Assembly: GCF_000019345.1 (NCBI RefSeq)
Contig: NC_010503.1
Location: 570,001-602,000 of the forward strand
DNA: 32,000 nucleotides
Source: Ureaplasma parvum serovar 3 str. ATCC 27815
GTDB lineage: Bacteria > Bacillota_I > Bacilli_A > Mycoplasmatales > Mycoplasmoidaceae
Direction of reading: 5' to 3'
Part shown: positions 1-32,000 of the stretch, one piece after another
Layout: every line of letters begins with the position of its first letter
How positions within the stretch are numbered: the first letter of the stretch is position 1
The notes under the pieces: generated by a model
The model's input: the letters and a program-made list of their open reading frames with translations, nothing else
What the model was told of the DNA's origin: nothing
The model's database searches: none
Translations under genes and position numbers: made by a program

Positions 1-2858
1 ACGTTAGAAACTGCTGGTGCTTTTAAAACAAGCTTACGAGCTTGATCGACACCATCATTAATTGCACTAACATCTTTGTTAATACTATTTCTATCTAATA
101 TTGTTTTGTTTGGATATTCATTTAAATCTACAATCTTATCAAAATCATAGATTTTGTTAGGATCAAATAAATTATTGTTTGGATTAACAATAACTTTTCC
201 CTTATCATCAGTTTTGATTGGAACATGAATTTCATTGTTATTTTTATCTTTATAAACAGCAGTTAAATCTTTATTTTTTTGATCTGGTATTTTAAACTCA
301 TGCTTATTATCAGCATTAACATTACCATTTTTTTGTTTATTAACTATTCGATCTAATGGTGAAATTTCATCAATATTAGCAACTTTTTTATTATCAGCTT
401 CAATTTTTGTTAGTGTATATTTATGATCTGGTGCAAAAATTGCATCATCACTTGTTTTAAAAATAGCTTTTCCATCTAAACCAATACTAGCTTCAACCGT
501 TTTTGTATTAGTATTATTATCATCGGTTTTAAATGTTAATTTAATTTTTTTATTTGCTAAACTAGGATTTGAAAAACTAATTTCATAATCATCATTTTCT
601 TTAGTTTTAGCAGTTATTGTTGGTTTTTTAAATGAAATATGATTATCACCACTTAATTGCTCTTCACTAATTAGATCAATATTTGGTTGATTATTTTGTT
701 TTAAAACGACTTTTTTAAGTGTGTATATATTAGGTTTAGTTGGGTCATTATTTGCTAAATTTTTTGTTGGAATAATAACCTTGCCATTAGCATCAATACT
801 TACATCTATCTCATGTTCTATACCATCTTGATCAACAACAATTCCTTTGACATTTGCATTATTTAAAGCTTTTTGTTTTAAATCATCATTTAAATCATTT
901 GCTAATTGAGTGTGAATTTCTAAATTTCCATCATTATCGTACGTAAAATCTGGATGTGAATCTAATAAATTCAAATCTCGTTTATCAATTATTTTATCTT
1001 TTAGTTCAAAATCATTAAGATTAATGACTTTATTTAAATCGTTATTTTCAACTTTAGCTAAATGATAAATATATCCTTTTGGTAAATCATTACTATCAAA
1101 AATAATTTTATTATTTTGATCCACATTAGCAACTACTTTATATTCTTTATCATTATTATCAACAAAAGTTGCTACTAATTTCTGATTAATTAAATCATTA
1201 TTTAAATTTTCTAAAATTTGGGTTTTTTTAGTTGAATCAACACTTGCATTAGCAGCTGGCTTTTTAATTAATTGTTTTTGTTTTGAAGTTAAATCAAAAT
1301 TTGAAACCAAAACATTTTGTGGGTTTGAAACTGAAACAATTTTGTCTAGTGAATAATTACTGTTATTATTTAATGCACCTGTATCAAATGCTATGGTTCC
1401 ATCTTTTTTAACTTTTGCTAAAATTTGGTGTTCTTGATTATTTTGATCTTTAAAAATTCCATATACTTGTTGGTTAACATAATATGGCGCTACTTTAGCA
1501 ATTAAATTAATATCACCATTTTTTGTATATTGATATGGGGTATTTAATGCGTTTGAATTTAAATTATTAATTGATCGATTATGGTATGGAATCTGTTTAA
1601 GATTAACAACATCAACTTCATTAGTTTTTTTAATACCAATAACTTCATATAAATTATTATCACCTAAAGATGAAATATCAAAAACAGCTCGTCCTTTTTC
1701 ATCTGTTTTTGCATTAATTTTATATGTTTGATGATTTAGATCTTCTAAGGTAAGTTCAAGAGGAGTGTTTTTTAATTGAACACCTAAATCAACTTCATAT
1801 ACTTTTTTGTTATCAATAAAATTAACTTTAGCTTTTGTTGGTTTATTTACACTAACTTTATGTTCAAGCATTAATTCATTATTTGGCACTAAAACATCAT
1901 TTAATTCATTATTGTTAACAATTCGGTTTAATTCATATTTGTGATTTAAAGGTAGTTTTTTAGTATTAAAATACCCAACATTATTTTTTACACTCAACGC
2001 TGGTATTAAATATTCTTTATTATTTTCATCTTTAAAAACTGCTGTTGGCAAGGCTTGGTTTTTAGTTTTATTTGTTAAATCAACTTTTAAAACAAGATTA
2101 CCTTCATTATCATAAGTATGTGTTTTATCAATTTTTTTAAACTGTTCATCAATATCATTAACATTTACAACTTTTGTTAATGGATTTGAATCTTTTAAAA
2201 TTAGATCTTTTAAATAATAAACATTGCCATCTTTTAAACTACTTGTATCAATATCAATTTTTTGATCTAATCCAACATGTGCTTCAATACTATAAACTTC
2301 ATTATTTTGATTTACAAATTTTGCGACTAAAATTTTATTAGCAAGTATTTTATTTACCTTTAATTGAATGTGCTTTTCGTTTTTTTGATCCTCATATACA
2401 TTAGTTGGAACTGGTTTTAAAACTTCAATTTTCTGTTCAGGTTTTAGCTTCTCATTTTCACGAACAATGTTATTATTTAAATCAATAATTCGATTTAGCT
2501 TATATTTACCTGTTTTTGGTAAATACTTAGTATCAAATTCAAATTTTGCATAAGAATCAATTTGAGTTTTTATTTTATATTCTTGATTGTTTTCATCAAC
2601 AAAAACACCATAAACATCTTTGTTAATATAAGTTTTTGGTAATTGACCTTTAATGATTAAGTCACCATCATCATTAAAACTATAAAAATCATTATTACTT
2701 AATTCATTATTGTTTTTTGAATGTAAAACAATCCCAATAATTGCTCCTGCTCACGCTAAATTTAGCGTTGCAAGCAATAAGAAAAGACGTTGCTTACGAC
2801 TTTTTTTATTATTATCGTTTTTTATTGTTTGGATTTTTTTACTTTTTTTATTATTCAT
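1..2858 (-). CDS. Membrane-anchored modular repeat surface protein; N-terminal ~952 codons are in the window and the C-terminus lies beyond position 1
   Basis: Hand check of the frame found no in-frame TAA/TAG from 2858 down to 1 and a single TGA. The ATG at 2858-2856 has AAGGAAG just upstream. The N-terminus MNNKKSKKIQTIKNDNNKKSRKQRLFLLLATLNLAWAGAIIGIVL is a basic stretch plus one TM helix with no lipobox Cys. About ten ~90-100 aa modules follow, each with F.D.NN.EY.I and ending ..Y.L..I (GKYKLNRI, NVYYLKDL, HKYELNRI, NLYEVIGI, SNYSLDKI, YIYHLAKV, NIYTLKKV, HKYTLTKI, KIYDFDKI). It is absent from the ORF track because it runs off the window edge. Confidence 0.8.
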
Positions 2859-2939
2859 AAACGCTTCCTTTATGTACTATAAAAAATACTATTTTATAGC
2901 ATTAATAACTGCAACTAAAAATGCTCATAAAATGATAGC

Positions 2940-2973
2940 AAAAAAAAAAAAAAAAGACCATTGATTGGCCTTT
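2940..2973 (-). terminator. Intrinsic terminator downstream of the 3085..6396 lipoprotein gene, with an unusually long T16 tail (A16 on the + strand, 2940..2955)
   Basis: The minus-strand RNA reads AAAGGCCA-aucaa-UGGUCUUU (8 bp including one G-U, 5-nt loop, 2953..2973) and runs directly into the U tract. It lies 112 nt after the TAA at 3087-3085 and 81 nt before the next ATG at 2858. Confidence 0.6.
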
Positions 2974-3046
2974 GTACTTATAAAACCCACTAAAACGTAT
3001 ACAAATTTTAGTAAAATGAAAAAACTTAAATTTTTATAAAAACTAG

Positions 3047-3071
3047 TTTGTGTAAAATCTTTGTGTAAAAT
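3047..3071 (+). repeat. Tandem direct repeat of the 12-mer TTTGTGTAAAAT (3047..3058 and 3060..3071, 1-nt spacer)
   Basis: Read directly from the sequence: tttgtgtaaaat c tttgtgtaaaat. It sits 14 nt outside the stop codon of the 3085..6396 gene. A third exact copy lies on the opposite strand at 6422..6433. Confidence 0.9.
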
Positions 3072-3084
3072 ATACTCTCATATC

Positions 3085-6000
3085 TTAGTTTACTTTAGGA
3101 ATTTTATGACCATTAATTTTAATACTCTTTAAAAATTGTGTAGAGATCTGATTTGAATCAAGATTTGAGCATATATCTTTTAAATCATTTAATCAATAAC
3201 AATTTTCATTAGTTAGTGTAATTTCAACACTTTTATTATTATTTTTATTAATTTTTGCAACTATTTTTGACTCTAAAGTATCCCCATCGCTATTGTTATA
3301 TACATAATTTAATTCAATATTACATTCTTTATCTTGGGATAAATTACTTAAAAATATATCTTGATCAAAAGTAATATTAATTTTTGGATCAGATCCATTA
3401 ACTTCATATTTAATATTATCTACTTTTCATTTTAAATTGGGATTTAAGATTCCAGGAAAATTAAAATAGCGTTGGTTATCTACTCAAGTTAAATCTAAAT
3501 TTTTATCATTCAATTGAATTGAATTAATTCGATATTTAATATCAGGCTTTAAATATTTTAATTCAAATTCAATTGTTTGGTGCTCATAGTCGATTTTTAA
3601 TTGGTTATGAGCATTTAAATCAATACATTCTTGTTGGTTGTTTTCATCTTCTAACACTAATGACATTTTATGGGCGTTTTTATCTTTAAAGATGAAATCG
3701 CTAAAATGCAACTTGAATTTAATGTTTTTTTGTTGTTGGTTAATTTCATGATCAATTTTATCTAAGTAAAATTGATCAAAGCCGTAATCTAAAGTTTTAA
3801 AAGTCTTATTATTGATATTTTTTAAATTAATCTGTTGCTTATCAATAAAAAGTTCACTAATTTCATAATCAGTATTAATGTTTAAGTTATCTAATTTAGT
3901 TGAGATTTGGTGTGTTTTTTTATCAAAATAAAAATCTGTTTTAAATAAATACAACAGCTTGTTTGTTTTTTTATTTTTTAAAATAACATCAACTCTTTTT
4001 GGCATATTTATAACTGCTTGGTTTAGTGTTAATTTTAAAGTACTATTTGTATTTTTAATATCATTAAATTCTAAATTTAATAATAAATGTGGAGATGATT
4101 CATTAAGTGTTTTAACTGTAATATTATTAGTTAAATAATTGTCATCATCTATTTCAAAAGAAATAAGTTTAAATGTTTGATTTTTATCTAAAGCAAAAAG
4201 ATGTAAAATAATGTTTTTTGTTGCATTAAGTTGAGTAGTTTCTGATTTTGATAAGTTTTTAACAAACTTATATTTATTATGATTTTCATCTTCTAAAGTA
4301 TATTTTATTTTATGCTCAATACTATCAGCATATTGATTGTCTTGTAAATCAACATTTAGATCGGTTGAAGTTGATTTTGTATTTGTGAATGAAAAAACAG
4401 CTTTTTTGAACTCATTTGTTTTAAATTTAAGAAATGAAAGATCCAAGTGAAATGGATGAGAATCAAAAAAATCTCCTATATAAACATTTACATTAAAATT
4501 ATCACTATGGTAATTACCATCAACATCTTCTAAGATAAAACTTACAAATTCATAATTAATATGATTATCTAAATTTAATAATTTAATTTTAATTGTTTTT
4601 TGATCTTCATCAATACTCATGAAGCAATTTTTATCTTCAAAACTAAACTCCTTATATGCTCATTCATTTGGATTATTTAATGGATGATATCTTAATTTAA
4701 TTTTGGGTTTTAAAGAATTTTCTTTTCTTAAAAGTAATTTTTCACATTTAATATTAATAATCGCACTATTTTTAGTAATATCCGAAATGAAAAGGTGTTC
4801 TTTATAATCTTTTTTTACTTCTTTTGATCTTTCATTATCATCTTTTTTAGAAACTGATAAATATCAAAACCAACTATTAAAAGCACTATAGTAAGAATTA
4901 TAGAATGATTTATCTTTAAAAATTTCAATACTTGATCGATCAGGACGTATTTTAAATGTTTTGTTAATAGGTCCATAATATCCACCTGCATAGTCATCAT
5001 CATTAGGGAAAGATACTGGTTTACCGTTTAGTAAAATATTATCAATTTCATAAGTTTTGTCAACATCTAAACCATTAATTACAGCAGTTAATAAACGTTC
5101 TTGTTCATCGTATTTAACTTCTGAGAATTCAATTGGGTTTTGATCATTTTCTTTTCTAATTAAAAATTTAAAATTATGAATATTAGGATTGTAGAAAGCA
5201 AGATCTTCAGATAATTTTACTTTAATTGTAACTGCTTTTGTAATTTTATCAACAGCTGTTTCATAATCAATAGCTTCAACTTTAGCATAATCGCCTTTTG
5301 TTGTAAAATCATGTGTTTGATTATTTAAATTTAAAACTTGATCATTAATCTTAATTTGTTTAATATCATAATGAGTTCCTCTTTCTAATTCATCAACATA
5401 AACAATAATTCTCTTGTTTAATTTATCAATAAAAAAATGCTTCTTATTAAGCTCTAATTGACCTTTTTTATAAACTCTATTATATGCTAAACTAATGTGG
5501 ATATTATTTAAAGCTTCATCACTATCATCTTTTATTTTTAACTCTTTAAAATTTAAAGTTAAATTAGCACCATTATCATTAATCTTTGTAATTTCTAGAT
5601 TTTTTAAAAGATTATCACTATCATCAAGGGTTTTAAAAGTGTGGTTTGGAATTGAAGTTAATTGAATTTTTTGATTATTAAAATTAAGTTTATCTAATAA
5701 ATATTCACAATCAGATGTTAAATTATAAACGGTAGCATCAATTTCATTTTTTTGCTTATTGAAAACAGCATCACTAGTAATGATTTGGTGATTAGTTTTT
5801 TTGATAATTTTTAAACTAAAATTATGAATAGCATCGTCTTTAAAAGAAACTGTTTTTAACTTAATCTTTATATCAACTTGGTTTTGTTTAATATTTGTAA
5901 ACGAAATATTATTAATTTCTAAATGATCAATCTTTGGTGTATTAGGAAGTGATGGTTGTAAATTTAAATCTTCATTAATATCTTGTTCGATAAAATTTAA

Positions 6001-6396
6001 ATTATGATCAAAAATTAAATGTAGTGCAGGAAATGCATCATTTGAAAAATTAGTGATAAAATGATCATTAATTTTTGGTTTACGAGCTAGTCTTAAATAA
6101 ATTTTGTTATTAATAATCAAAGGATGAATATTTTCTAAACGGTCAACTTTTTTATTTAACAATGGATTAAAAAGATTGGTGTTTAAAGTTAAATTCTTAT
6201 AAATACCTTGCGAAGTATTTAGTTCATTAACTTCATAAACAACATAATAATGGTCACTCTTGGTATGAATTATATCTTTCATTAAAACATTAACATTTAA
6301 CTTTGATTTATTGCTACAAGATGCAAGTGCTGTAGCAACAATAGGAACTAAAGCAGCTGTAAATAAAAATAATAACTTTTTCTTAATTAATTTCAT
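3085..6396 (-). CDS. Large modular surface lipoprotein, 1103 aa (paralog of 11592..14333)
   Basis: ORF-track pieces 4864..6396 and 3484..4620 are in the same frame and are joined by TGA codons. I found no in-frame TAA/TAG until the TAA at 3087-3085. The signal peptide MKLIKKKLLFLFTAALVPIVATALAS-C has lipobox LASC. AAGGA lies upstream of the ATG. Module-end signatures include CEYLLDKLNFNNQKIQL, THYDIKQIKINDQVLNL, KTYEIDNILLNGKPVSF, TDYEISELFIDKQQINL and IKYRINSIQLNDKNLDL. Confidence 0.85.
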
Positions 6397-6421
6397 AATT
6401 TTATATCCTTAATAATAACTA

Positions 6422-6433
6422 ATTTTACACAAA
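6422..6433 (-). promoter_or_regulatory. Inverted third copy of TTTGTGTAAAAT; contains a -10-like TAAAAT 25 nt upstream of the lipoprotein ATG at 6396
   Basis: The + strand reads attttacacaaa, which is the reverse complement of the 12-mer. A second candidate -10, a perfect TATAAT, is on the minus strand at 6452..6447. No transcript mapping is possible from sequence alone. Confidence 0.3.
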
Positions 6434-6470
6434 ACAATACGACATCATTATAACCCATAAACATCAATTC

Positions 6471-6518
6471 AAAAAAAAAAAAAAAACACTGCTTTTAATA
6501 CCTTAATAAAAGCGGTGT
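6471..6518 (-). promoter_or_regulatory. Orphan hairpin plus 16-nt homopolymer (A16 on +, T16 on -) 74 nt upstream of the lipoprotein gene start
   Basis: A16 spans 6471..6486. The adjacent 11-12 bp stem pairs 6486..6497 with 6507..6518 (ACACTGCTTTT / AAAAGCGGTGT). The one imperfect position is a G-U on the + transcript and a C-A mismatch on the - transcript. It is terminator-like, but no upstream gene on either strand needs terminating here, since ackA diverges from 6667. Confidence 0.35.
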
Positions 6519-6666
6519 TTAAATAAGTGAATAAATAAAAAATAATTGAATTTAGATTATTAAAAAAGCATATGCACATATAGTAAAATAATAAATAAAG
6601 TGCTGATCAAAAGCCAGAATTGTTTATTTTTGGTTTTAAAGTTTAGTTAATAAGTGGTGGTTAATT

Positions 6667-7830
6667 ATGATGTTAATAATTAATATTGGTAGTAGTAGTT
6701 GAAAATTTTGCTTGTTTGATATGAATTTAAAACAAATATTTAGTGGCAAAATTCGCTTAGACGTTAGCCCACACCAACTAAAATATATCTTTGATAAAAA
6801 TGAATATGTTTATTTACTTGATGATGATCACAACAATCACGTTGATTTAATCATTAAATTTTTAATTAACAAAAAAATTATTAAAAAATTAGAAGATATC
6901 ACTTATTTTGGAATTCGAGCTGTTTATGTTAAAAATTTTTATGGAGCAAGTGCTTTTTTAAATAATGAAATTTATAATGATCTTAACCAACACACAGATT
7001 TATGTCCTATTCACAACCAAAATACTATCATGTTAATTAATGACATTAAGCATTTAAACACCTCTGCAAAAATTATTATTATTTTTGATAATTGGTTTCA
7101 TCGTAGTATTAATAAAAATAAATACACTATTGCTATTGATCAAACAATAGCAATAAAACATAAAATTCGTAAATATGGTTTTCATGGAATTTCTTTTAGT
7201 TATAGTAATAAAATAATGCAAAATTATTTAGGAAAACAAGATGTTAATTTAATTATTTTACACTTAGGTTCTGGATCGTCAGTTTGTGCAATTAAAAATG
7301 GAAAATCATTTGATACCTCAATGTCTTACTCTCCTCTTTCAGGAATTATTATGAATACAAGAAGTGGTGATATAGACCCTAGTGTTTTACTTACTTTAAA
7401 AAAAGTAAAAAACCAATCACTGAAGCAATTGATCTTATTTTTAAATCAGCAATCAGGTCTTTATGGATTAACAAAACATCATAGTATTAGTGAAGTTGCT
7501 AATAATTTGCACAATAAAAATAATGAACTTGCCCTTGAGATGTACACTGATAGCATTGTTGATTATTTTATTAAGTATTTAAACCATTTACAAAAGATTG
7601 ATGCAATTGTATTTTCGGGAGGAATTAGTGAATTTGAGCATCTTGTTTTAGAAAAAATTATTAGTAAAATTCATCTAATAAACCTTGAAATTAACGATCA
7701 TTTAATACTAACAAACACGTTAAATAAAATTTCAACATCTAAATCACAAATTCCTATATATTTATGTTTAGTGAATGAAGAGCACGAAATTGCTTATGAA
7801 ATGCTAAATTTAATTAATAAGACAAAATAA
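6667..7830 (+). CDS. ackA: Acetate kinase (divergent)
   Basis: Extending ORF 6712..7830 upstream across one TGA to the ATG at 6667 gives MMLIINIGSSSWKFCLF, the N.GSSS.K phosphate-binding motif. Other AckA blocks are present: PIHNQ (PLHNP), FDNWFH, YGFHGISFSY, HLGSGSSVCAIKNGKSFDTSMSYSPLSGIIMNTRSGDIDP and a C-terminal VNEEHEIA. Several blocks are degenerate, for example GISEF where GIGEN is usual. Confidence 0.85.
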
Positions 7831-7833
7831 AAA

Positions 7834-9951
7834 TTATTCATGATAGTCAGCACTATGAATAATAGAAAAATACTTATCTAATGATTTGTTAAATTCAATA
7901 TTTTGATTATTTACTTTAACATCAACAAAATCATAAACAATTTGGTCCTCAATATTTTCAAATTTTGCTATTAAAGTTTTCTTATTTACATCATATTCCA
8001 AAGTTTTTGGGCTTATCAGATTAGTAGTGTATCCTGTTCGTTTTTTAATTGTAAATGTAAAATTATTAGATGAAGTGGGATTTGTGGGAATATTATCAAA
8101 TTTTAATTTGATTGTTGTTAATTTAGTTTCTTTATTATAAGATTTACTAATTTCATTTACATTAAATTTAGTTTTATAATCACTATTTTTAGTATCAAAA
8201 TCAAGCGGGATATTAAAAGGATGGTTATGATGATTTGTATTTTTTTTTAAAAATTCAGGTTTGTTTAATAATTGTTTATTTTTATAATCATTAATAACAA
8301 AGTCAATAACTTCATATGATTTATTTGATTCTAAATCATTAATTGTTACATTCAATATGTGGTTATGAACCAAACCCTCAACAGTATTATTAGTAGTATC
8401 AATACTATTAGATGATGGTTTTAGTCTATATTTGACACTAACTTTATCACCATCAACTAAATCAAAATCATCTTCTAAATGAAACTCTAATTTAGCGGAT
8501 TTATCGGTTGAACTATAAGAAATCTTTTTGATTTTAATTTTTGCTTGAGGTGTATTAAAACTACCATTTAATCCTTGAGTATTTACTTCTAAAGCTTGTT
8601 TTTCACTAAAATCTTGTAGATCATCAAAAACTAGTTTAGAAAAAGTGTATTTTCGGTTTGATAAAACTTTATCGAAACTAAATTCGTACTCTTTTTTTGT
8701 GGGATCAAATAAAACAGGTTTTGATACAATGATGTTATTTGCATTATCCATGTATACTAATTTTAAATATTTATTTTTTAAATAATTAACGTTATTTTCA
8801 AAATATAATTTAATCTTAACACTCAAATTTTCATCATTAAATCAAAAATCACTGCTTTCATGTTCTAAGTTCTCTAATCTTTGAACAGTAGTTAATTTTG
8901 TAGAGGTTAAAATATTTAAATCTAAATTAGCTAATGATATTGGCTGTCCATTAAGAGTTAATGAATTTAATGAGTATTTTGTACTAGTTTGTAAACCCGT
9001 TAAATTAAATGATAAGGTCTTTTTAGAGTTATTGTAAACATAATTTTCAAAACTAAAAGTATTTGATGGTTGGTGTGCTGAAACTAATTTTAAAACAAAT
9101 TTTTGATTATTTAAATCACCTAACTTATTATCTTTAAAATAAAAAATCAATTTTGCACTAGTATCATAAATTTCTTTTTCAATTTTGGTGATGTTTAAAT
9201 CTTTAATAATCGGGTTTGAGTTTTGCTTATTAGTATTAGATAATACTAAATTTTGGTTACTAAAAACTAACTCTTTATTATTTAAAACAATCCTATGAAT
9301 TTGGTATTTAGCGTTGTTTTCTAATTGAGTAAAATTAAATGTTATCGATGGCGAATTTGGTTGATAATTAAACTTAAATTTTGTAATTTGTTGGGTTTGT
9401 AAATTTAATAAACTAATCTCAAAAATATTTTGGTTTTCGTTCGCTAAAAAATATTTTGTAAATTCTAAATTTAAATCAGCACTATTATTAGTAATATTTT
9501 TTCAATCAATTTTTTTTATACTAAATTGATCTACATTTTCTTGTGTTAATGTACTTGTTATAAAATCTAGTTTAGTTATTAGCTGTTTTTGATTATTAAT
9601 TAATAAATCTACTAATTCATAACCCATATTTGGTTTTAATTCATTAATAATTAATTTATTAAGATCATTATCCTTAACTAATTTTAAATTATTAATTGTT
9701 TTTAAATCACCAGTTGCTTTTTCTTTTAAAACAACACTGTATGAATGTGATGCTAAAACTGCACTACCTTCTAAAAATAACTCAATACTATTAGTAGTTG
9801 TTTTAAATTTTTTTATTTTAAAAAGCACTTGTTTATCATCAACCTTACTTTTTGATTTAGTGCATGCACCAATTAAGCAAGATAAACCAATAATTAAAGT
9901 ACTACAAGTTAAAATTGTAATTATTTTAGTTAAATGTTTTTTAGTTATCAT
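7834..9951 (-). CDS. Modular surface lipoprotein, 705 aa
   Basis: ORF-track pieces 9502..9951, 8842..9150 and 7834..8826 share one frame. The gaps contain only TGA codons and no TAA/TAG (hand checked). The true stop is TAA at 7836-7834. The signal peptide MITKKHLTKIITILTCSTLIIGLSCLIGA-C has lipobox IGAC. AAGGA lies upstream. There are six modules of ~105-110 aa, ending MGYELVDLLINNQKQL, TKYSLNSLTLNGQPISL, RKYTFSKLVFDD, KSYEVIDFVINDYKNK and IVYDFVDVKVNNQNIEF. Confidence 0.85.
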
Positions 9952-10135
9952 CTTTTATAAATCCTTTTTTGAAATTATCTATTAAAAAGCAAATTGAGCT
10001 TTTATATCATACAATAAATAATCTATTTTTAAAACTTTATTGTTAATCTACGATAAATTTAAAAAGGTACTTGGATGTTAAGTATAATAACTTTTGTGCT
10101 CTTTTTTTATAAATTTATGTATTTAAATCTCTTTA

Positions 10136-11440
10136 TTAATTTTCATCAATAATATCATTTTCATCGATTTTAATATTAACAGCAACTAAAGTATGATCTG
10201 AGATAATAGAAGTAGCTTTTTTAATGTATACATCATTTGATTTTGCTATTTCATCCCAATTATCAACAATATTTTGCATTTGTTGATTACTTAAAGAACG
10301 AAAATAGGTTTTTAAAAAAGCTAATTTTCAGTTTTTATCTAATAATGTATTTGTTAAAGAAACTGATCATAAATCATACTTATAAGTATTTAAAACTTTA
10401 ATTGATGGTGAAGTAAAAATTTTGTCATAGTGTTGTGCGTATTTTAAATAAGTTTTTGCTAATGTAGTTTTGTTATTTTCATTATCATCCTTAAAATTGG
10501 ATAAATAATTACGTTTATAAAGTGAAGCAAAGGCTCCTAATTCGTTTTTTGTTTTAATATTAGTATCACCAACAAAAATTAAATCATCATTATTTCCATC
10601 TAATCTATCAATATAGTCCATCACATTTCCTAATTGATATGCCTCATTTAATTCCTTTGAGCCTTGTTTAATATTAATTTTTAAATTTTTATTACCATAA
10701 GTATGATCATGTTTGCTAGTTTTATGTTCGTTTGCTCCTGGTGAATCTAAATGACTAGCGACAATTGTAAAATTAAATTTGTTATCTAAAGTTTGAAATT
10801 CATAGGCATAAGGCGGACGTGAATAAGTAATTTTAGTATTATCATTCCAGTTCTTAAAATATTGTTCAAACAAAATATCTTTATTATCATTGTTTTTGTA
10901 AATATATTCTTGAACTGGTTTTATTATATTAGCTTTATAAAAGAAGCCAATTCGTTCAGTTTGTGATTCATTGCCTTTTGAAAATAAGTTTTTTGATAGC
11001 ACATAATTTCAATTAGCTGTTTGATCAAATTGATTTTTGTGTAAATTTAATTCTTTTAAGATGGCACGCATTGGTAAATCATCGTGTTCATTATTTTTTG
11101 CACTATTAATTTCTGTTAAAGCAATTACATCAACATTACTTTTTAGAATCACCTTTGCTAAAGCTTCATTTTTTAACTGGTTTATTCCACCTTGATTTAA
11201 AACATTTCAATGACCTACACAAATTGTTTTTTGGTTTAAAAATGATCTTGTTGAGTTAGGTTGTTCTTTTAAAGAATTATTATTATTTTGAATTATATAA
11301 CTATCATTATTTACACTTGTATCATTCTTTTTTTTATTTTTTAAATAAAAAACAACGCCAATAACTGCACTTGCTATTAAAATGATTAACAACGTTAACG
11401 AAATAGTAATTACTCATTTCCGGCTTTTATTATTCTTCAT
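10136..11440 (-). CDS. Membrane-anchored endonuclease/exonuclease/phosphatase (EEP) family nuclease, MnuA-like, 434 aa
   Basis: Pieces 11207..11392 and 10367..11002 are in the same frame and joined across TGA. The ATG at 11440 has AAGGA upstream, and the stop is TAA at 10138-10136. The N-terminus MKNNKSRKWVITISLTLLIILIASAVIGVVFY is a TM anchor with no lipobox Cys. EEP motifs appear in the correct order: GHWNVLN, DVIALTEI, ASHLDSPG, FVGDTN, YDKIF and SDHTLVAV near the C-terminus. Confidence 0.8.
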
Positions 11441-11591
11441 AAATTTCCTTAATTTTGTTCATAGTTATTAAATTTTAAACAATAATTTAATCCTTTTTTA
11501 ATCTTTTAAACAAGGCAAAGCAAATGAATAATATAGAATTCATTTATTTATTTATTTATAAAAAATAAGTTTTTTTAAAAAAATTTTATCG

Positions 11592-14333
11592 TTAAGAATT
11601 AATTTTGTTTGGTAGTTTAATAGTTAAATTTTGATCATCTTTAGAAAAAGGACTAATATCATTTGTTGTTAAATCATTATAAATGATTGTTACTTTATTA
11701 AGTACTAAATCATCATAATACCAATCAAATGACTCATGATCATTTTGATCTTTATAGTCAATATTTGCATAATTTATTACATATGTTAAAGTTTTAGTTG
11801 CTTTATCTAAAACAAAATCTTTGTCCTTGTTTGAATTAATTGCTTCAGGATTGCTAAACGTTCTAGATAATGAAAATGTTCAATTAGCATTTTTATTATT
11901 TTTAGGCTTTAAAGACGAAATAATGGCAAACAGTTTATGATCCGCATTTTTGTTATATCATCAATTATTAGAAAACTGCAATGATATTTTTGTTTTTTTG
12001 GTTACTGAATCATAACTAGCAACAATTTTTTCTACCTTAGAAGCTGAAGCGTTAGTTTGAACCATTGTTATAGAAGTATTAATAATCACTGGTTTAGCAT
12101 TTATCATTAACGAACTAATTTGATAAGTGCTCTCAGGTTCTAAACCTCCATAAATATTTTCATCATTATCTAAATCATAAATTAATTCAATTACATTTGA
12201 ATTATTAACTTTTGAAGATAAAACAGTTTGGGGACTAAGTGTAAATTTTCGGTTAATAATATTAGTATCAAGATTATAAAAATTTAAAGCATAATCTGAT
12301 GGATTTAAGCTTTGATGTAAACTTAAACTATCTAATTTCATTTTAATTTTTAATATATTATGGATTTTGTCATATTCTCAAGTATCAAGAGATGCTGTAA
12401 TAGGAATCTCAAAAATAGCTTCATGATTGTGTTTTGATAATAACTCAATCACAGACTGATCATCGTTTATTAAACTAATACTTTTAATTACATATTGATG
12501 TTGTTTTAAATAATTTGGAAATGTGTTTTGGTTAATTTTTAATTTAAATCCTGCTTGTTGGAAACTAAATTCATTATTTAAACGATTAAAAATAATTTGC
12601 TTACCGTCTTTTAAAGTCAATTTAATTTTATTAATTTTTGTAAGATTAAGTTGTTTAAAATGTTTGATATTAAGATGTAATTCAGGATCATTCTTAGCAT
12701 TAAATTTAATTACATTTGATTGGTATTCAGCAAATTTTAACGTAAATTGTTTATTTTGTAAATCATCAATTTCAATTGGTATTTCATTGATTGATGCTTC
12801 ATTATTAACCACAGTTAATTTAGTAATTATATAATTAGAATCATTTTCAAGAATTTGACCTATCGATTTAGCATTCAAAGTTTTATTTAGATTTAATAGA
12901 AAATACTTATTTTTTACATCATAAAAAGAACCTGTTGTTATTTTGTTTTCTAAAATATCAAAACTAAAGGTCTTTATATCTTCTTGCTGATCTGTATTTA
13001 TTTTTTTAATTGTTAATAAAACTTTTTTAGTATTTTGCACTATTGGCGAATCACTATCTAATTGAAATTTCATAAGCATATTTTGTGGATCAGTATCATC
13101 AAATGTAAATTTAATGATTTTAGAAAGATGTTTATTAGTTAAATCAAGCTGTTTTTCTCTAATACTTAATGGCAAAGTTTGCTTATCATTCATTATTGTT
13201 AATGATTTAATTTTAAAAAAAGGAGTTTTTAAAATAAGAGTTTGTAATTCTAAATTATTGACTAAATCAAAAACAATATTGTTTTTATCGTGATTAAACT
13301 TTAATGATTTTAAAATAATAGTTTTATTATTTTTAGTTGATATAAGTTCAATATCTGCACTTAACATATTATCTTTAAAATTATATGGGTTAATAAAATG
13401 ATCATATGAAAGTTGTAATTGTTGTGGAATTCCATCATTTTTAATCACTTTAGTATCTAAAACATTTATTTTTGTTCATTTTGAAAAAACAGATGGAATT
13501 AATAAATAAGTTGGTCTTTGATTATTAATACTTCCATCTAACTGTAACCCACTTGGTTTATAAACGCTTTGGTTAATTTCAAGTTTTTTTTGGTCTAAAA
13601 CTAATTTAGAAATAAAATATTCGCCATCATCTAATTGGTTATTTGCATCAGCATTTAAATTAGCAGTAATAGTTAATACTGGTTTTTTATTTTGTTGTGT
13701 TAAGTGATTAAATTGATATTTTAGAAAATGCAATTTAAAGGTTTTATTTGTTTTTTTATTTGTTAATTCAATTTCAATATTTTTATCTTTAATATCATTA
13801 AGATTTAAATTTAAAAGCTTAATTTCGAATTCAACTTCTGTTTTTTTAATGTTAGTAAATCGGGCACTCTGGTCAACAACTTTAATTAAATGATCTTCTT
13901 TATTAAAATTAAAATTAATGGATCTAGTCAACATTTTATTAGTTTGAATCACTTGAACGCCAACAAATTCTTGACTTGAATTTATAATAATTTTTTCATT
14001 GGGTTTAGGACGTTGGGGTAAGCGAATATAAATACGATTATTTATAATAATTGGTTTTATATCAACATAAAAAGCAATTTTTTGGTTTGAACTATTAATA
14101 ATACTTGTTGAAAAAATAACTTTTGGCATTTTTTGCATATCTTCATTTGTTAATTTATTAAATTCATAAGCAATATAATAATCGTCATTTTCTGTTTTTA
14201 AAAAATAATCTAAAACTTTTAATTTATATCTGGTTTCACTAAAACTACATGCAGAAATGGTGCTGATAATAGGTATTGATATTAATGAAGCAATAAGTAA
14301 GTTTCAGTATTTATTTTTATTTTTTAATCTCAT
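11592..14333 (-). CDS. Large modular surface lipoprotein, 913 aa (paralog of 3085..6396)
   Basis: Pieces 13476..14138, 12378..13448 and 11961..12341 are in the same frame. All gaps were checked and hold only TGA codons. The ATG is at 14333 and the stop is TAA at 11594-11592. The signal peptide MRLKNKNKYWNLLIASLISIPIISTISA-C has lipobox ISAC. The N-terminal domain is colinear with gene 3085..6396: DDYYIAYEFNKL vs DHYYVVYEVNEL, and KPIIINNRIYIRLPQRPKPNE vs HPLIINNKIYLRLARKPKIND. Module ends include GEYFISKLVLDQKKLEI, SNYIITKLTVVNNE, HQYVIKSISLINDDQSV and STYQISSLMINAKPVII. Confidence 0.85.
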
Positions 14334-23946: not shown

Positions 23947-26900
23947 TTAAAATTGGTTTTCGTTATTTGTATCCATAGCATCATTATTCGTTGTACCAAA
24001 ACTATCAGTGTAGTGTTTGTGTTGATCATCAATTTTAAAGATTGATGCTTTTGGTTCTCCTGAATAATATGTAGCGTTTGAACTATTTGGAAGATTTGGA
24101 TTAATTCGTGGTTCATATCACACTTTACCAATATCAATTGTATTTTTTAAACTATCTGAATTTCTTCGAAGGTAATTTGCTAATGTACAACTGCTTGATA
24201 ACACGTTAGCACTTGTTGGTCGTGAAGCTCTTTCAAAATCTGTTAGTAATGAAGTATCTTCACCTTCATTAATACCATCAATATCATAGCCTTTAAAAGC
24301 TAAATTATTTGTATTATGTTGATAAATTCGAGCATAAACACCAAGTGATTTAGCTAATCCTAAATCAAAGATTGTTTTACGATAACCACCAAAACCTGTA
24401 AATGGTCCTTTAAGGGATAAAGCAACTTGATATCTTCAAGTAAAGTTATTTCTTCCATGACCAAATTTTCATACTTTTCAATCGACTGATTTGGTACTAA
24501 ATGCATTTTTTAAACTATAGCCCATATCTTTAGCTGAAATTGTATTTGATGCTTGATAGTGTAAGACTTTAACTATATTATAATTTTGGTTTGGAATTAA
24601 TTGAATATTTTTAAATTCTAAACAATTATTATGTGCAACAATTGAAACAATCACGTAATCTTTTTTAATATCATAGTTTAGATGATTATCAATCTTATTT
24701 TCATAATCACGTGTATTAAATGGATCATCTCATGTTGATAAAACTACATTATAAGTTTGTCCTTCAACAAAAGTATTTGCTTCTTTACCTTTTAATTTAA
24801 AATTAACCACTGATGCTGGGTAACCACCAGAATCACCTTTTGTAAAGACAATATCGTTTTTAACAACTGTAGTTTGATCAAATTCAATTTGAGCCCCTAC
24901 GGTTTTAATGTGATATTTTGATGAATTATAATTATTAGTTGTGTAAATAATTTGATTATCAGCATTATTTATTGATCCAATAATTCTATTAATACCTTTA
25001 TTAACAAATGAAATACTTTTAATATAATAATCTTGATTAAAATTTAAATTGTTAAAATCTGCATTGAAATATCAAAATGGGTCATTATTATTTTTCTTAA
25101 ATAATTTACATGCTCCAGTACTAAAACTAGCTTCATTATCAGGTTGATCTTTTCGTTTGTATTCAATATTTATAGAAAAATCACCATTTAAAATTTGGTT
25201 TAAAACTGTACTATCATTTTTTCCAACTAATTTAAATTGTTTTGAAATTCCATCTTTAAATTGCGCAAGATTTTGCACTTCATTAACATCAATATGAATA
25301 CCTGTTTTAATAGTTTTTGTTATGCGATTATCAATATTAATTATTTTGAGATTATCGATCATATAAATTTGCTTTTCAATCTCATTTTTATTTGGATGAG
25401 TTTGCTTTTCATTATAATAAACACCTAAAAATTGATATTCACTATTTTCTTCTAAAGCCCCATTATTAGGTAAATCAAATTCTAATTTTGAATAATTATT
25501 AGTATTTAATTGAATTGGTTTAGATCAAACTTCTGCATTTGTTTTAGTGTTAGTAAATAAAGCAAACATGTATTTATTATAAAGATGTTCATCTTTATTG
25601 TTAAATGTCACAGTTGATTTTAGTGTTAGATTTTTATTATCTAATTTATTTTTCACACTTTTTACTTCATAAGGATTTTGGTTTTCTTCAATTTTAATAC
25701 TTGAGTATTGACTATTGTCTAATTCAAAAGTTACTTTATCCTTATACATTTTTGTTTGTGGATTTTCATACATTAATTTATTTAAATCCTTATGGGATAG
25801 TGTCTTAGGTTCATAAACTAAATCAATGCTAATAAGTTGATATAAATTACCTGGTTTAAAATGATCATCATTATTATCAATATTAAATTCAATGATTTTT
25901 TTCTTGTTATCAACTTCACCAACTAATGGAGGGTTCAAAGGTATTTGTTTTCTTTTATTTGGCAGTAAAATTTTTTCTATACCTATTCTTTGCCCCATAA
26001 ATAAACTGTCATCTGGATCGTCATATCGAATTTGAAATGTCATTTTTTTATGATTTTTATTATAAACAATCTTAGGGGTTGCAACATATCATTTAATTGT
26101 TGTTGCGTCAGTACTAAATGATAGTGCATTACTATTTACATTTTTGAATGCTTCACTATCAGTATCTTTAGATATTAGTTTTTTATGGTGTTTATCTTGA
26201 GAAAAACTAGGATCTGCTCATTCAATTCCTAATATTTTATATTCACGATTACCCTTAAAATATTCATTATGATCTTTAATGATTTGAACTAAATAGTCTT
26301 TTTGACCCGCTTTAAAATTTATTGGTTCAGAATAGATTAGTTGTTTATCATTAGATTCTCAATTATTATTCTTTTCATCCCACACATCACTTTTTCTTTT
26401 TGAAGATTCGTAAATTAATCTGAATGGTTTACCAATATAAGTTCCATCATGCTGTAATTTTAAATCAAAACTTATACCATCATTAGTTTGATCTTTTTTA
26501 ACTAAACTAATAATTTTTGGTTCAACAGTTTTAGTTTTGAATGAAATATTAGGTTGTGTCTTATCATTAGTATTTTCATAAATTACATTGTTATTAGCTT
26601 TTGAATTTAAATTAGCATAGGCCTTAGTTGGTTTTTGCTCAAATCACATTTTAGTAATTTTATATTTAATATTAGGCTCTAAATTATTTAAAGATAAAAG
26701 TACAATTGCACTATTAGAATTTCCATTTAATGTGTATGTACGTTCAAATACTGGAATATTTTCTGCTGGAATATCTTTTTTATTAATATCTTCATTAAAT
26801 GGTGTAATTTGAATATGTAATACTTGTTTATCAAATACTTGATCTTTTGATTCTAATTGAAATCAAACTGTTGCAGCATCAGTTGTAGCTGGTGTTTTAA

Positions 26901-29900: not shown

Positions 29901-32000
29901 GTTCAACATTAAATTGGTCAACAAGATTATTCTTATTTAATTCACACCATTGGTTATGTTCATTTAAATATAAAATTTTATCTAAATGATATTCACGGTT
30001 ACCAATAATTGAATTTGAAGCGTTTTTATCAAAACTAAACACATAATCATGTGTATTTGTGCTAACTAATAATGGTTGAGTTTCAAAGGTTTCGTTATTA
30101 TTTTGTGATTGATAAACTAATTTTAGTTTTTTAGCATTTAAATATGGATCAATTTTATTAAATTTAGCGTTAACTTTAATTTCTTCTTTATTTGATGCGT
30201 AAGTATTTTTTATAGTTTTAATACTATTAATTTCAAAAATAGGTGTACTTGTTGTAAAAATAATTGAATGTGTTTGATCATTTGAATAAAACTGATCATT
30301 ATATTTGTTATTAATATGTTTATAAGCATTATTTGGTTGTTGTTTAAATTCAACACTAACTAATATATATTTAGTATTTGGTTCTAAATTATTTAACGTA
30401 AAGCTAAGTTTTGTTTGGTTATTTACATTCGCAACAACACCATTAGCTACAAAAGTCTTAGTTAAATCATCACCTTTAGCAAAATGACCTATAATTTGTG
30501 AATTTGGTTTAAAAATATCACCATCATTTGTACTTATAGAACAATTAATATCAGCTGATGTTGAAGTAATATTTTTAACTTCATGTGAACTAATTGTTGT
30601 TGCTGATGGATTTATAACTATTTTTTTATTTGTAATTGATGAATTAATTGGAATTTGATTTGTGTTTGTGCATGCAAAATCATTATTTTGGTCTGAGAAA
30701 TAAATAGCTTGGATTTCATAAGCCTTATTAGCAATTAATTTGTCATGACCAATCTCCACACTAGCTTTATTATTAGTAATTTTAAAAGCACTACTAAATT
30801 GGTCATCTTGTTTAAACTTATGACCACTTACACTATATTTAACACGAATGTACTTATTGTTTAATAAATTAGAACTTAATTCAATCGGTCAACTAATCTT
30901 GGTGTTTTGATCATAATCAAGATCTTGTTTATTAATTGTAACTTTATTAACTTCACAATCTAAAGCAATTTTTTGATTTATATCTTGATTATTAGTACTT
31001 AAAAGAGCTAAAGGATGTTGGGTATCATTAATTTTAGCAAATGCGGCATGAATTGGTTTATTAGCAAAACTAATTTCAAAAATACCATAATCTTGATTTA
31101 AAGTTAAATTATCAATATCAAATTCACAATAGAATTGTTTATTTTGTTGATCATATTTAATTGTAATATTGTTAATTAAATTAGCATTTTGCGTTTGATT
31201 AAATAAAGCATATTTAACATTTAATAATTCTTTTGAGCAATCAGTTGAATTTAAAATACCATCAGGATCATTAATTATATATTTAACATGTGCACTAACA
31301 GATTGATTATCTTGAACTTTTGTAATTGTAATTGTTGGTTTTTGCACATCCATTTTATTTGGCGCTAACCCTAAAGCTAATGATAGATGATTTTCATTTA
31401 AATCTTTTTTAATTTCATTGTTTGCACCCTTGTTTTTAATTGCACAAATTTCACTCAACTCATATTGATGATTAGGTGTAATTTGTGATTTTAACAATTC
31501 AAATTCATAAACTTGATTTGAATTTGAATTAATGTTATTAGAGCTTTTAATTTCAATAGCTGGTTTGTTAGGATTTGTTTTATCTACAAATTTAGCATAA
31601 ATTTCATATCCTTCAAGTTCATGGCCTTCTTTATGTAAACCAACACTAAATTTAACATTTTCGTCTTTTGCACATTCATAAACTCCATTTACTAATTTAG
31701 AGTTTGATGCTAATTTAAAATCTTTAATGAAATTATGAGCAACCTTAGTTGTTAAATCTAGTTTTTCTAATTGTTTTTTAGTAGTTTCATTATATTGAAT
31801 TGGTGATGTTTTTACATTAGGTGAATGAACATGTGTTGTGCTAATAGCACCAATTTCATAAGTTGTATTTGGTGTTAAATCCTTTAATGTAACATTAATT
31901 TTATGATTTTTAACACTAACTTCACCAGCTTTTGAACTTGTTCAAGCTTGTTCACCTTTTTTGCGATATGTAATTGTAATTTGGTCATTATCAACTAAAT
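23947..32000 (-). CDS. Giant modular surface protein, C-terminal >=2683 aa in the window (N-terminus beyond 32000); a module array plus a ~470 aa non-repeat C-terminal domain with a GDSGG motif
   Basis: Eight ORF-track pieces (25072, 25525, 27154, 27931, 28261, 28537, 29737, 30889) share one frame. I checked every line from 23941 to 32000 in that frame and found only TGA codons, with the first TAA at 23949-23947. Module-end signatures run throughout: HQYELSEICAIKNKG, QDYGIFEISFANKP, KAYEIQAIYFSDQNN, TKYILVSVEFKQQP, REYHLDKILYLNEHN, TEYELKTVSLNQEN, MQYTIKWVGLAKNN, MQYELKDAKLIFNE, QDYKVCELMLLTKP, IKYKITKMWFEQKP, REYKILGIEWADPS, NLYQLISIDLVYEP, SEYQFLGVYYNEKQ. The last ~470 aa (about 23947..25362) lack the module pattern. 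Confidence 0.85.

What the first reader, a model, noticed from the sequence alone, without database searches (positions are those of the whole stretch)
1..14333. Multigene family of modular surface proteins interleaved with housekeeping genes; about 60% of the window
Five genes (1..2858, 3085..6396, 7834..9951, 11592..14333 and 23947..32000) total 19,084 nt of 32,000. All are on the minus strand. All are built from tandem ~90-110 aa modules with the same terminal signature (more than 35 instances read by eye). Three have clean lipoboxes (LASC, IGAC, ISAC) and one has a non-cleaved TM anchor. They are not in one island. Instead they are separated by ackA, a nuclease, the secDF-like/apt unit and the era-dnaG string. 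Module sequences are very diverged while the spacing is kept, which suggests an old, structurally constrained family rather than a classical hypervariable antigen locus.
Basis: seen in the sequence. Interest (0 to 1): 0.65.

Follow-up and report, generated by a model that had tools for sequence, protein, structure and literature searches.

The report
Ureaplasma DUF1410/MBA-paralogue surface proteins
The five long minus-strand genes are real, but they are the already annotated Ureaplasma parvum "DUF1410" and "MBA N-terminal paralogue" surface proteins: membrane-anchored chains of very diverged fibronectin-III-like beta-sandwich modules whose function is still unknown.

Summary
The window is Ureaplasma parvum (genetic code 4). 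The five genes, their strands, the lipoboxes (LASC, IGAC, ISAC), one N-terminal TM anchor and the 19,084-nt total are all confirmed.

HMMs built here find 36-37 modules in A, B, C and E, and none in shuffled or housekeeping proteins. There are two module subtypes. A carries the canonical Pfam DUF1410 type. B, C and E share a second type. Profile-profile comparison links the two (E 3.8e-5; column-shuffled null far lower), and they occur together in other Ureaplasma proteins.

AlphaFold2 gives a confident 7-8-strand beta-sandwich for a B/C/E-type module (pLDDT 86). Its best Foldseek matches are Fn3 domains.

D is only partly linked. It shares the MBA N-terminal domain with B. One module-length match and one Fn3-like stretch support it, and the rest is undetectable.

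All of this is existing annotation: Pfam PF07198, NCBIfam NF045871, and the 'MBA N-terminal paralogues' UU483 and UU487. C is the eMLST locus mba-np1 (UU485).

There are no DNA repeats and no mba inversion sites, and dN/dS is 0.16-0.51. The genes are therefore conserved core genes, not a switching antigen locus. I score the finding low: already known, with a modest added fold assignment.

The parts
1..2858 (-). Gene A (UU482-equivalent; the tag is inferred from gene order). It encodes the N-terminal 952 aa of a protein that is about 5,759 aa in a serovar 1 genome.
   Evidence: Table-4 ORF. Pfam DUF1410 312 bits in 9 stretches. Full length from the gene call in L087.
2721..2789 (-). A: single N-terminal hydrophobic segment (aa 24-46), with no lipobox Cys. 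It is a signal-anchor or an uncleaved/cleaved signal peptide.
   Evidence: Kyte-Doolittle scan. Sequence.
72..2684 (-). A: nine tandem A-type (canonical DUF1410) modules, aa 59-929, mean spacing 98 aa.
   Evidence: jackhmmer 49-124 bits each, with no shuffle hits.
3085..6396 (-). Gene B (UU483-type MBA N-terminal paralogue), 1103 aa lipoprotein.
   Evidence: NCBIfam NF045871 124.7 bits, aa 3-134. Pfam DUF1410 28.2 bits against a cutoff of 25.5.
5995..6390 (-). B: signal peptide plus lipobox (LASC, Cys27) and the MBA N-terminal paralogue domain (aa 3-134).
   Evidence: Sequence.
3208..5937 (-). B: 7-8 B/C/E-type modules (aa 154-1063).
7834..9951 (-). Gene C (UU485, the published eMLST locus 'mba-np1'), 705 aa lipoprotein (IGAC, Cys30). 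It has no MBA N-domain.
   Evidence: The eMLST primers map to 8493-8517 and 9065-9087. Pfam DUF1410 32.4 bits. NCBIfam gives no hit.
7885..9822 (-). C: six B/C/E-type modules (aa 44-689). Module 3 (aa 236-350, window 8902-9246) was modelled.
   Evidence: AF2 pLDDT 86.3. Foldseek best matches are Fn3 domains.
11592..14333 (-). Gene D (UU487-type MBA N-terminal paralogue), 913 aa lipoprotein (ISAC, Cys29).
   Evidence: 100% identical to the 'putative lipoprotein / MBA family surface membrane protein' of U. parvum sv6. NF045871 162.1 bits.
13932..14327 (-). D: MBA N-terminal paralogue domain (aa 3-134), homologous to that of B.
   Evidence: blastp D 20-196 against B 17-202, E 4.5e-12.
13578..13862 (-). 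D aa 158-252: the only module-length match of D to the B/C/E profile.
   Evidence: hhalign 83 columns, P 0.0027, score 19.8 against a column-shuffle maximum of 14.6.
12009..12182 (-). D aa 718-775: Fn3-like E-F-G stretch (YGGLEPESTYQISSLMINAKP).
   Evidence: It matches a bona fide four-fold fn3 protein, P0026, at E 1.3e-7 library-wide. blastp gives 36% identity over 59 aa. Pfam fn3 scores 57.5 bits on P0026.
23947..32000 (-). Gene E (UU495-equivalent; the tag is inferred). It encodes the C-terminal 2,683 aa of a 5,783-5,803 aa protein.
   Evidence: Full length and precomputed DUF1410 hits on the full protein.
24988..31989 (-). E: at least 14 B/C/E-type modules (aa 4-2337). Stretches 1292-1469 and 1792-2266 are left unassigned.
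   Evidence: The first partial module scores Pfam Pur_ac_phosph_N 29.9 bits and fn3 22.9 bits, both just under their cutoffs.
23950..24987 (-). E: C-terminal ~346 aa non-modular region with no recognisable domain.
   Evidence: Pfam and PDB sequence searches were empty.

Best explanation
These are five core-genome genes of Ureaplasma parvum. They encode N-terminally anchored cell-surface proteins: three lipoproteins, one TM-anchored protein, and one whose N-terminus lies outside the window.

Their extracellular parts are strings of about 100-120-aa, highly diverged, disulfide-free beta-sandwich modules of the fibronectin-III/Ig-like kind. Pfam already collects these modules as DUF1410. B and D also carry the conserved ~130-aa 'MBA N-terminal paralogue' signal, lipobox and anchor domain.

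Shown here:
- the gene models and the anchors;
- module homology among A, B, C and E;
- the Fn3-like fold of one B/C/E-type module (a prediction);
- purifying selection, somewhat relaxed relative to the neighbours;
- the absence of the DNA features that drive MBA size and phase variation.

Inferred:
- The proteins project as long, flexible multi-domain rods from the wall-less cell surface. A and E are about 5,800 aa, which is roughly 50 modules each.
- They act as non-enzymatic binding or spacing structures, most likely host-cell or matrix adhesins and/or a protective coat.
- The fold is conserved (a buried Leu...Tyr 'tyrosine-corner'-like motif) while exposed residues drift.
For: Organism and gene identity.

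Anchors.

Family assignments: Pfam DUF1410 in A (312 bits), B (28.2) and C (32.4), and in full-length E. NCBIfam MBA_Nterm_para in B and D.

Modules: my own HMMs find 36-37 modules with no shuffle or housekeeping hits.

A-type versus B/C/E-type modules: hhalign gives 70.7% probability, E 3.8e-5 over 65 columns, with no shared sequences. The real score is 29.8 against a column-shuffled maximum of 10.0 and a reversed score of 8.5. Both types occur in one polypeptide in P0018 and P0019, and both profiles hit the same P0019 segments.

Fold: the AF2 module model has pLDDT 86.3 and pTM 0.77. Foldseek top hits are Fn3 domains: PTP-eta fn3 (E 9.7e-4), IFNAR2 D2, Sevenless (TMq 0.60) and insulin receptor FnIII-1. 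A PDB sequence search with the profile returns almost only Fn3 domains, weakly, at E 0.007-0.7.

Link to MBA proteins: a U. urealyticum 'MBA family' protein (P0029) carries the MBA N-domain followed by two B/C/E-type modules.

Selection: dN/dS is 0.16-0.51 against 0.03-0.22 for the neighbours, with similar dS. The published value for C is 0.21.

No switching features: no tandem or long DNA repeats and no inversion or recombinase sites.

Open role: Ureaplasma adhesins remain unidentified according to PMC3511179.
Against: - The function is not tested anywhere. Adhesion is an analogy with other bacterial multi-Fn3/Ig surface proteins.
- D's body is only weakly linked. The B/C/E HMM gives 3.1 bits, which is noise. 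Three of six segments fall within the null. The AF2 model of D was poor (pLDDT 41.8).
- The A-type fold was not modelled. Its PDB profile search gave no Fn3 hits.
- Foldseek TM-scores are moderate (0.5-0.6), and many Ig V domains score similarly. The evidence therefore supports an 'Ig-like sandwich, nearest Fn3' and not strict Fn3 membership.
- Surface exposure is predicted from the anchors only.
Confidence: 0.75

Rival explanations
1. The module 'signature' is an artefact of AT-rich codon bias (N/K/I/Y/F richness), and the genes are unrelated.
For: All five proteins are 11-14% N and 10-13% K. Between-type similarity is low (15-20% identity). The first small hhalign test gave only 9.5% probability.
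Against: There are no HMM hits in residue-shuffled copies or in equally AT-biased housekeeping proteins. The column-shuffled and reversed hhalign nulls are far below the real score. AF2 folds the module confidently from the paralogue alignment. Pfam's independent model hits A, B and C above its threshold.
Confidence: 0.03
2. The window holds not one family but two or three. A-type DUF1410 modules, B/C/E-type Fn3-like modules and D's body would be independent beta-rich inventions that merely share a Leu...Tyr strand motif. B and D would be related only through their N-terminal MBA domain.
For: The A-derived HMM does not find B, C or E, and the B/C/E HMM does not find A. D is at noise level for both. 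A Leu-x-Tyr 'tyrosine corner' recurs in many Greek-key folds (textbook knowledge). The PDB search with the A-type profile shows no Fn3 hits.
Against: hhalign gives E 3.8e-5 over 65 columns (strands B-F, not just the motif), well above the nulls. Bridging modules in P0019 are hit by both profiles. Pfam treats them as one family. D aa 158-252 aligns over 83 columns, and D aa 718-775 matches bona fide fn3.
Confidence: 0.17
3. The genes form a phase- or size-variable antigen system like the mba locus or the UU172 element, or like mycoplasma vsa/vsp/vpma. Variants would be switched on and off to evade antibody.
For: B and D carry the MBA N-terminal domain. MBA paralogue UU172 is phase-variable by inversion (PMC3047005). 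C has a poly(A)8 tract at codon 145-147 that is A9 in one genome, and A7 is implied by a 159-aa truncated product seen in 12 sequences. D carries a nonsense allele in one metagenome assembly, and its orthologue is fragmented in U. urealyticum.
Against: The 36-nt UU172 inversion sequence and the 25-nt mba recombinase site are both absent, even allowing 3 mismatches. There are no tandem repeats. All family genes lie on one strand, separated by essential genes, so recombination between them would be deleterious. dN/dS is below 1. The same genome that has A9 in C also has a +1 in the nuclease poly(A) tract, which points to homopolymer assembly error.
Confidence: 0.05

Closest known systems
Pfam PF07198 (DUF1410), Ureaplasma repeat domain of unknown function
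   Same: A is a textbook member (312 bits, 9 copies). B and C pass the gathering threshold. Full-length E and the paralogues P0015-P0020 are annotated 'DUF1410 domain-containing protein'.
   Different: The 61-position Pfam model covers only the core. The B/C/E-type modules are longer (about 110-120 aa), form a separable subtype and score weakly. D is not detected. Pfam assigns no fold or function, whereas an Fn3-like fold is predicted here.
MBA (multiple banded antigen) family / 'MBA N-terminal paralogues' UU172, UU189, UU483, UU487, UU526 (Glass et al. 2000; NCBIfam NF045871)
   Same: B and D have the conserved signal peptide, lipobox and N-domain, and by gene order they are the UU483/UU487 pair. 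A U. urealyticum MBA-family protein (P0029) has the same N-domain followed by the same B/C/E-type modules.
   Different: There is no C-terminal short tandem-repeat region, no inverted repeats or recombinase site, and no adjacency to the mba locus. A, C and E lack the N-domain altogether, even though C is called 'mba-np1' in the eMLST literature.
Fibronectin type III / Ig-like beta-sandwich domains (Pfam fn3 PF00041 and relatives)
   Same: The predicted module is a 7-8-strand sandwich. Its best Foldseek and PDB-sequence matches are Fn3 domains. It has the Fn3-style 'L-x-P/x-x-T/x-Y' F-strand motif. D aa 718-775 matches a real fn3 repeat protein.
   Different: Sequence scores stay below the Pfam fn3 cutoff (22.9 against 25). 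TM-scores are only 0.5-0.6. The A-type module was not modelled.
Giant multi-repeat bacterial surface adhesins built of Ig/Fn3-like domains (e.g. staphylococcal Ebh/SasG, Salmonella SiiE, Bap/Lap-type proteins). This is recalled knowledge and is an analogy only.
   Same: Very long (about 5,800 aa) N- or C-terminally anchored chains of tens of beta-sandwich modules on the cell surface.
   Different: There is no sequence relationship, no cell wall or secretion-system context, the anchoring is by lipid or a TM helix in a wall-less cell, and no binding function has been demonstrated.
Mycoplasma variable surface lipoprotein systems (vsa, vsp, vpma, vlp)
   Same: Families of lipoproteins with repetitive extracellular parts in Mollicutes.
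   Different: Those systems are clustered, have near-identical DNA repeats and switch by Xer-type inversion or slippage. Here the genes are dispersed among housekeeping genes, have no DNA-level repeats and no inversion sites.

Membership tests
Pfam DUF1410 (PF07198) | Whole-protein score at or above the gathering threshold of 25.5 bits | tested here: met
   A 312.4, B 28.2 and C 32.4 bits. Full-length E carries precomputed DUF1410 hits at E<=1e-5.
Pfam DUF1410 (PF07198) | The same threshold applied to D and to the in-window part of E | tested here: not met
   D gives no hit. The in-window part of E scores 20.2 bits, below 25.5. U. urealyticum fragments of the D orthologue also give no hit.
MBA N-terminal paralogue domain (NCBIfam NF045871) | Score at or above the 55-bit cutoff over the ~132-aa signal, lipobox and N-domain model | tested here: met
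   B 124.7 and D 162.1 bits, aa 3-134. A, C and E give no hit, so they are not members.
MBA phase-variable superfamily (Paralanov et al. 2012) | Location in the mba locus and/or a flanking 25-nt putative recombinase site ACTTT(T/C)TCT(G/C)TTTGATAATT(C/A)AAAT | tested here: not met
   0 matches in the window with up to 3 mismatches. The UU172 36-nt inversion sequence is also absent.
MBA (multiple banded antigen) proper | C-terminal variable domain of tandem repeating units at the DNA level | tested here: not met
   TRF finds only four trivial arrays of 2.5 copies or fewer, and none is a module-scale array. No long direct repeats were found.
Fibronectin type III domain (PF00041) | Sequence score at or above the Pfam gathering threshold (25 bits) | tested here: not met
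   The best score is 22.9 bits, on E aa 8-50. Pur_ac_phosph_N scores 29.9 against a cutoff of 30.
Fibronectin type III / Ig-like fold | Seven-strand Greek-key beta-sandwich that superposes on solved Fn3 domains | tested here: inconclusive
   The AF2 model has pLDDT 86.3 and 7-8 strands. Foldseek top hits are Fn3 domains at E about 1e-3 and TM 0.5-0.6, but Ig V domains score at TM about 0.4-0.5 as well. Only one B/C/E-type module was modelled. The D model is unusable and the A-type module was not modelled.
Bacterial lipoprotein | Signal peptide ending in a lipobox [LVI][ASTVI][GAS]C | tested here: met
   B has LASC (Cys27), C has IGAC (Cys30) and D has ISAC (Cys29). Each is preceded by a basic n-region and one hydrophobic segment. 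Lipid modification itself cannot be tested with these tools.
Adhesin (functional class) | Demonstrated binding to host cells or matrix | not testable with these tools
   No experimental data were found. The reviewed literature states that Ureaplasma adhesins are unidentified.

The most novel reading that the evidence does not exclude
The Fn3-like module may be the common building block of the whole Ureaplasma surface repertoire. That repertoire would include the ~5,800-aa giants A and E, the DUF1410 proteins, the bodies of the MBA N-terminal paralogues, the non-repeat variable domains of the mba locus, and possibly its long 327-336-bp tandem repeat units, which have the same length as one module. 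On this reading the giant rods are the long-sought, still unidentified Ureaplasma adhesins or surface coat. E's unassigned 346-aa C-terminal domain would be the functional tip.
Probability: 0.2. Interest if true: 0.5.

Novelty: already known. Interest (0 to 1): 0.25.

Why it matters
U. parvum is a common urogenital coloniser linked to chorioamnionitis and preterm lung disease, and its adhesins have never been identified (PMC3511179). These five genes belong to a family that takes up a large share of a 0.75-Mb genome. A and E alone are about 17 kb each, and with B, C and D the total is roughly 43 kb, or about 6% (my arithmetic). They are conserved and under purifying selection.

Knowing that the modules are Fn3-like sandwiches, and that the MBA paralogue bodies use the same module, gives domain boundaries for recombinant expression, antisera and binding assays.

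As a discovery it adds little. The genes, the repeat domain (DUF1410) and the MBA N-terminal paralogy are all in public annotation, and one of the genes is already a typing locus.

Tried and rejected
1. Scanning genome contigs with AckA to fetch syntenic loci from other Ureaplasma species returned no Ureaplasma at all (best hit 36% identity).

2. The search for homologous proteins with the B/C/E module profile returned only two fragments of C. With D it returned only U. parvum alleles at 91% identity or more. With A it returned six DUF1410 proteins.

3. The AF2 model of full-length D, built from a shallow alignment (12 sequences at 92% identity or more), was unusable (pLDDT 41.8). It was not sent to fold search.

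4. Sliding-window jackhmmer within D found no internal repeats.

5. Loci L001-L006 are too similar to the window (99% or more) for dN/dS. The serovar 1 locus L087 was used instead.

6. The sigma-70 promoter scan is uninformative in this 23% GC DNA: 105 sites found against 108 expected.

7. The 'GDSGG' motif in E's C-terminal region was considered as a serine-protease catalytic motif, because Ureaplasma's IgA-protease gene is unidentified. I rejected it as unsupported: Pfam and PDB give no similarity, and no upstream His/Asp context was found.

8. The UniRef label 'DUF1410' on U. urealyticum fragments of the D orthologue was not reproduced by Pfam scanning.

9. Poly(A) length variation in C was considered as evidence of phase variation. 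It is left open because the same assembly also has a +1 in the nuclease tract.

Full report
IDENTITY OF THE WINDOW. The DNA is 22-25% GC. Its long ORFs are broken under table 11 but continuous under table 4, which marks a mollicute. The Apt protein is encoded identically in several Ureaplasma parvum assemblies, with the same gene order around it. Protein D is 100% identical to a 'putative lipoprotein / MBA family surface membrane protein' of U. parvum serovar 6 ATCC 27818.

CHECK OF THE OBSERVATION. I label them as follows:
- A, 1..2858, C-terminus cut by the window edge;
- B, 3085..6396;
- C, 7834..9951;
- D, 11592..14333;
- E, 23947..32000, N-terminus cut.

B, C and D have classical lipoboxes: LASC (Cys27), IGAC (Cys30) and ISAC (Cys29). 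A has one N-terminal hydrophobic helix and no Cys. None of the five has any further hydrophobic segment.

The intervening genes are ackA, an EEP-family membrane nuclease, apt, a protein only weakly similar to mollicute SecDF (NF046001, E 1.7e-14, far below its cutoff), ybeY, era, recO, glyS and dnaG. Terminator-like hairpins lie between apt and D and between B and A.

In other strains the full proteins A and E are 5,759 aa and 5,783-5,803 aa. The window therefore shows only a sixth of A and under half of E.

ARE THE MODULES REAL, AND ARE THEY ONE FAMILY? Pfam finds DUF1410 (PF07198) nine times in A (312 bits). B (28.2) and C (32.4) are just above the 25.5-bit threshold. The in-window part of E is below it (20.2), and D gives nothing.

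Iterated HMM searches seeded inside the window were run against a database that also held the nine housekeeping proteins and 100-500 shuffled copies. They converge on two subtypes:
- An A-type module: 9 copies in A, mean spacing 98 aa.
- A B/C/E-type module: 7-8 copies in B, 6 in C and 14 in E, mean spacing 110-121 aa.

There was not a single control hit.

The two subtypes do not find each other at the HMM level, and a first small profile-profile test was weak. Three later results connect them.
- Other Ureaplasma DUF1410 proteins recovered with A (P0017-P0019) carry A-type modules N-terminally and B/C/E-type modules C-terminally.
- Both profiles independently pick up the same P0019 segments.
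- An hhalign of 22 A-type modules against 25 window B/C/E-type modules, with no shared sequences, gives 70.7% probability and E 3.8e-5 over 65 columns. Sixty column-shuffled versions never exceed a score of 10.0, against the real 29.8.

The codon-bias explanation is therefore rejected for A, B, C and E.

D is the weak point. It shares the N-terminal ~180 residues with B (blastp E 4.5e-12). Both carry the NCBIfam 'MBA_Nterm_para' domain (162 and 125 bits). D's body shows no internal repeats and is at noise level for both HMMs.

With its orthologue alignment, three of six D segments beat all 30 column-shuffled nulls against the B/C/E profile: aa 135-258 (83 columns, P 0.0027), aa 526-635 and aa 636-755. 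The other three do not.

An exhaustive phmmer of D against 1.84 billion representative proteins found only ten relatives.
- Several are U. urealyticum fragments at just 50-56% identity, so the orthologue there is split into short ORFs.
- One is an unrelated, non-AT-rich protein with four bona fide fn3 repeats. It matches D aa 718-775 at E 1.3e-7.

So D probably contains the same kind of module, but this is not demonstrated.

FOLD. AlphaFold2 was run on C aa 236-350, using 27 other window modules as the alignment. It gives a confident model (mean pLDDT 86.3, pTM 0.77) of 7-8 beta strands.

Foldseek against the PDB puts Fn3 domains first: PTP-eta fn3-4 (E 9.7e-4), IFNAR2 D2, Sevenless (TMq 0.60) and insulin-receptor FnIII-1. 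The RsgI4 sensor domain and many Ig V domains follow at TM about 0.4-0.5.

A sequence-profile search of the PDB also returns almost only Fn3 domains, weakly, at E 0.007-0.7. The first partial module of E scores just under the Pfam cutoffs for Pur_ac_phosph_N and fn3.

The one nearly invariant residue in both subtypes is a Tyr preceded by a Leu. This resembles the 'tyrosine corner' of Greek-key sandwiches, which is textbook knowledge and not something I tested.

The AF2 model of D was unusable (pLDDT 41.8), though mostly beta. The A-type module was not modelled, and its PDB profile search shows no Fn3 hits.

WHAT IS ALREADY KNOWN. [quoted passage not shown]

The eMLST locus 'mba-np1 (UU485)' maps by its primers to window 8493-8517 and 9065-9087, inside C. 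Counting genes from C gives B = UU483 and D = UU487, which matches the two NF045871 hits. A = UU482 and E = UU495 follow by inference.

The eMLST study reports that C is conserved in all 14 serovars, has dN/dS 0.21 in 283 isolates, and has a phylogeny congruent with the housekeeping genes.

The paralogues are named 'DUF1410 domain-containing protein' in NCBI and UniRef. In the searchable literature I found no description of these proteins as Fn3-like, and DUF1410 is mentioned in only two unrelated papers.

VARIABLE ANTIGEN OR STABLE GENES? There are no tandem repeats or long direct repeats at the DNA level in the five genes. The 36-nt UU172 inversion sequence and the 25-nt putative mba recombinase site are both absent.

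Compared with a serovar 1 genome (L087), dS is about 0.05-0.12 for family and housekeeping genes alike. dN/dS is 0.16 for A, 0.41 for B, 0.17 for C, 0.31 for D and 0.51 for the tail of E. The neighbours range from 0.03 to 0.22. This indicates purifying selection, somewhat relaxed relative to the neighbours. Gene order is the same in all eight loci examined.

Three caveats remain:
- C has a poly(A)8 tract that is A9 in one genome, and A7 is implied by a truncated product, but the same genome also has a +1 in the nuclease tract.
- D has a nonsense allele in one assembly.
- D is fragmented in U. urealyticum.

MECHANISM. Shown: the N-terminal lipid or TM anchors, the extracellular tandem beta-sandwich modules, and the conservation of the fold-determining positions only.

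Inferred: the proteins extend as long multi-domain rods from the wall-less cell and serve as binding or spacing structures (adhesins and/or a coat). This is by analogy with other bacterial proteins built of many Ig/Fn3-like domains, and it fits the fact that Ureaplasma adhesins are unidentified.

A U. urealyticum MBA-family protein (P0029) joins the MBA N-domain to the same B/C/E-type modules. The module is therefore also used in MBA-family proteins. Whether the long (327-336 bp) mba repeat units are the same module was not tested.

VERDICT. However, the feature is the known DUF1410 / MBA-paralogue surface protein set of Ureaplasma. The additions here are modest: an Fn3-like fold prediction, a statistical link between the two module subtypes, and the exclusion of the known switching signals. 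Interest is low to moderate, and novelty is 'already known'.

Noticed in passing
window 9510-9517 (gene C, codons 145-147): The poly(A)8 tract in C is A9 in the complete genome CP021990.1 (L006), which causes a frameshift and leaves C uncalled there. A 159-aa truncated product seen in 12 sequences (P0014) corresponds to A7. This could be slipped-strand phase variation or a homopolymer assembly error.
   Followed up: partly
window 11328-11335 (nuclease gene, codon ~36) and L006: The membrane nuclease also has a poly(A)8 tract that is A9 in L006, plus a 5-nt insertion nearby. The nuclease is not called as a gene in that genome either.
   Followed up: partly
window 12140 (gene D codon 732); L004: A metagenome-assembled U. 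parvum (L004) carries GAA->TAA at D codon 732, which splits D into 731 aa and 171 aa.
   Followed up: yes
gene D, window 11592-14333; P0021-P0023 and cluster members: The U. urealyticum counterpart of D is only 50-56% identical and exists as several short ORFs of about 200-280 aa. It looks like a decaying or rapidly diverging gene, in contrast with the 91-92% identity between U. parvum serovar groups.
   Followed up: partly
window 23950-24987 (E aa 2338-2683); GDSGG at about 24823-24837: The C-terminal ~346 aa of the giant protein E are non-modular and match nothing in Pfam or the PDB. They contain a 'GDSGG' pentapeptide, but nothing supports a serine-protease fold.
   Followed up: partly
window 1-2858 and 23947-32000; L087 and L001-L006: A and E are each about 5,760-5,800 aa in full (about 17 kb per gene). 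In serovar 1 the E gene is called as a 3,642-aa fragment, so it may be interrupted there.
   Followed up: partly
It is a very diverged SecDF at best.
   Followed up: yes
L087 12733-13195 (between D and the nuclease in serovar 1): Two extra small ORFs (41 aa and 71 aa) are called between D and the nuclease in the serovar 1 loci. They are not called in the window-like strains.
   Followed up: no
window 9951 vs NCBIfam result for C: [quoted passage not shown] Its first module starts 14 residues after the lipobox Cys.
   Followed up: yes
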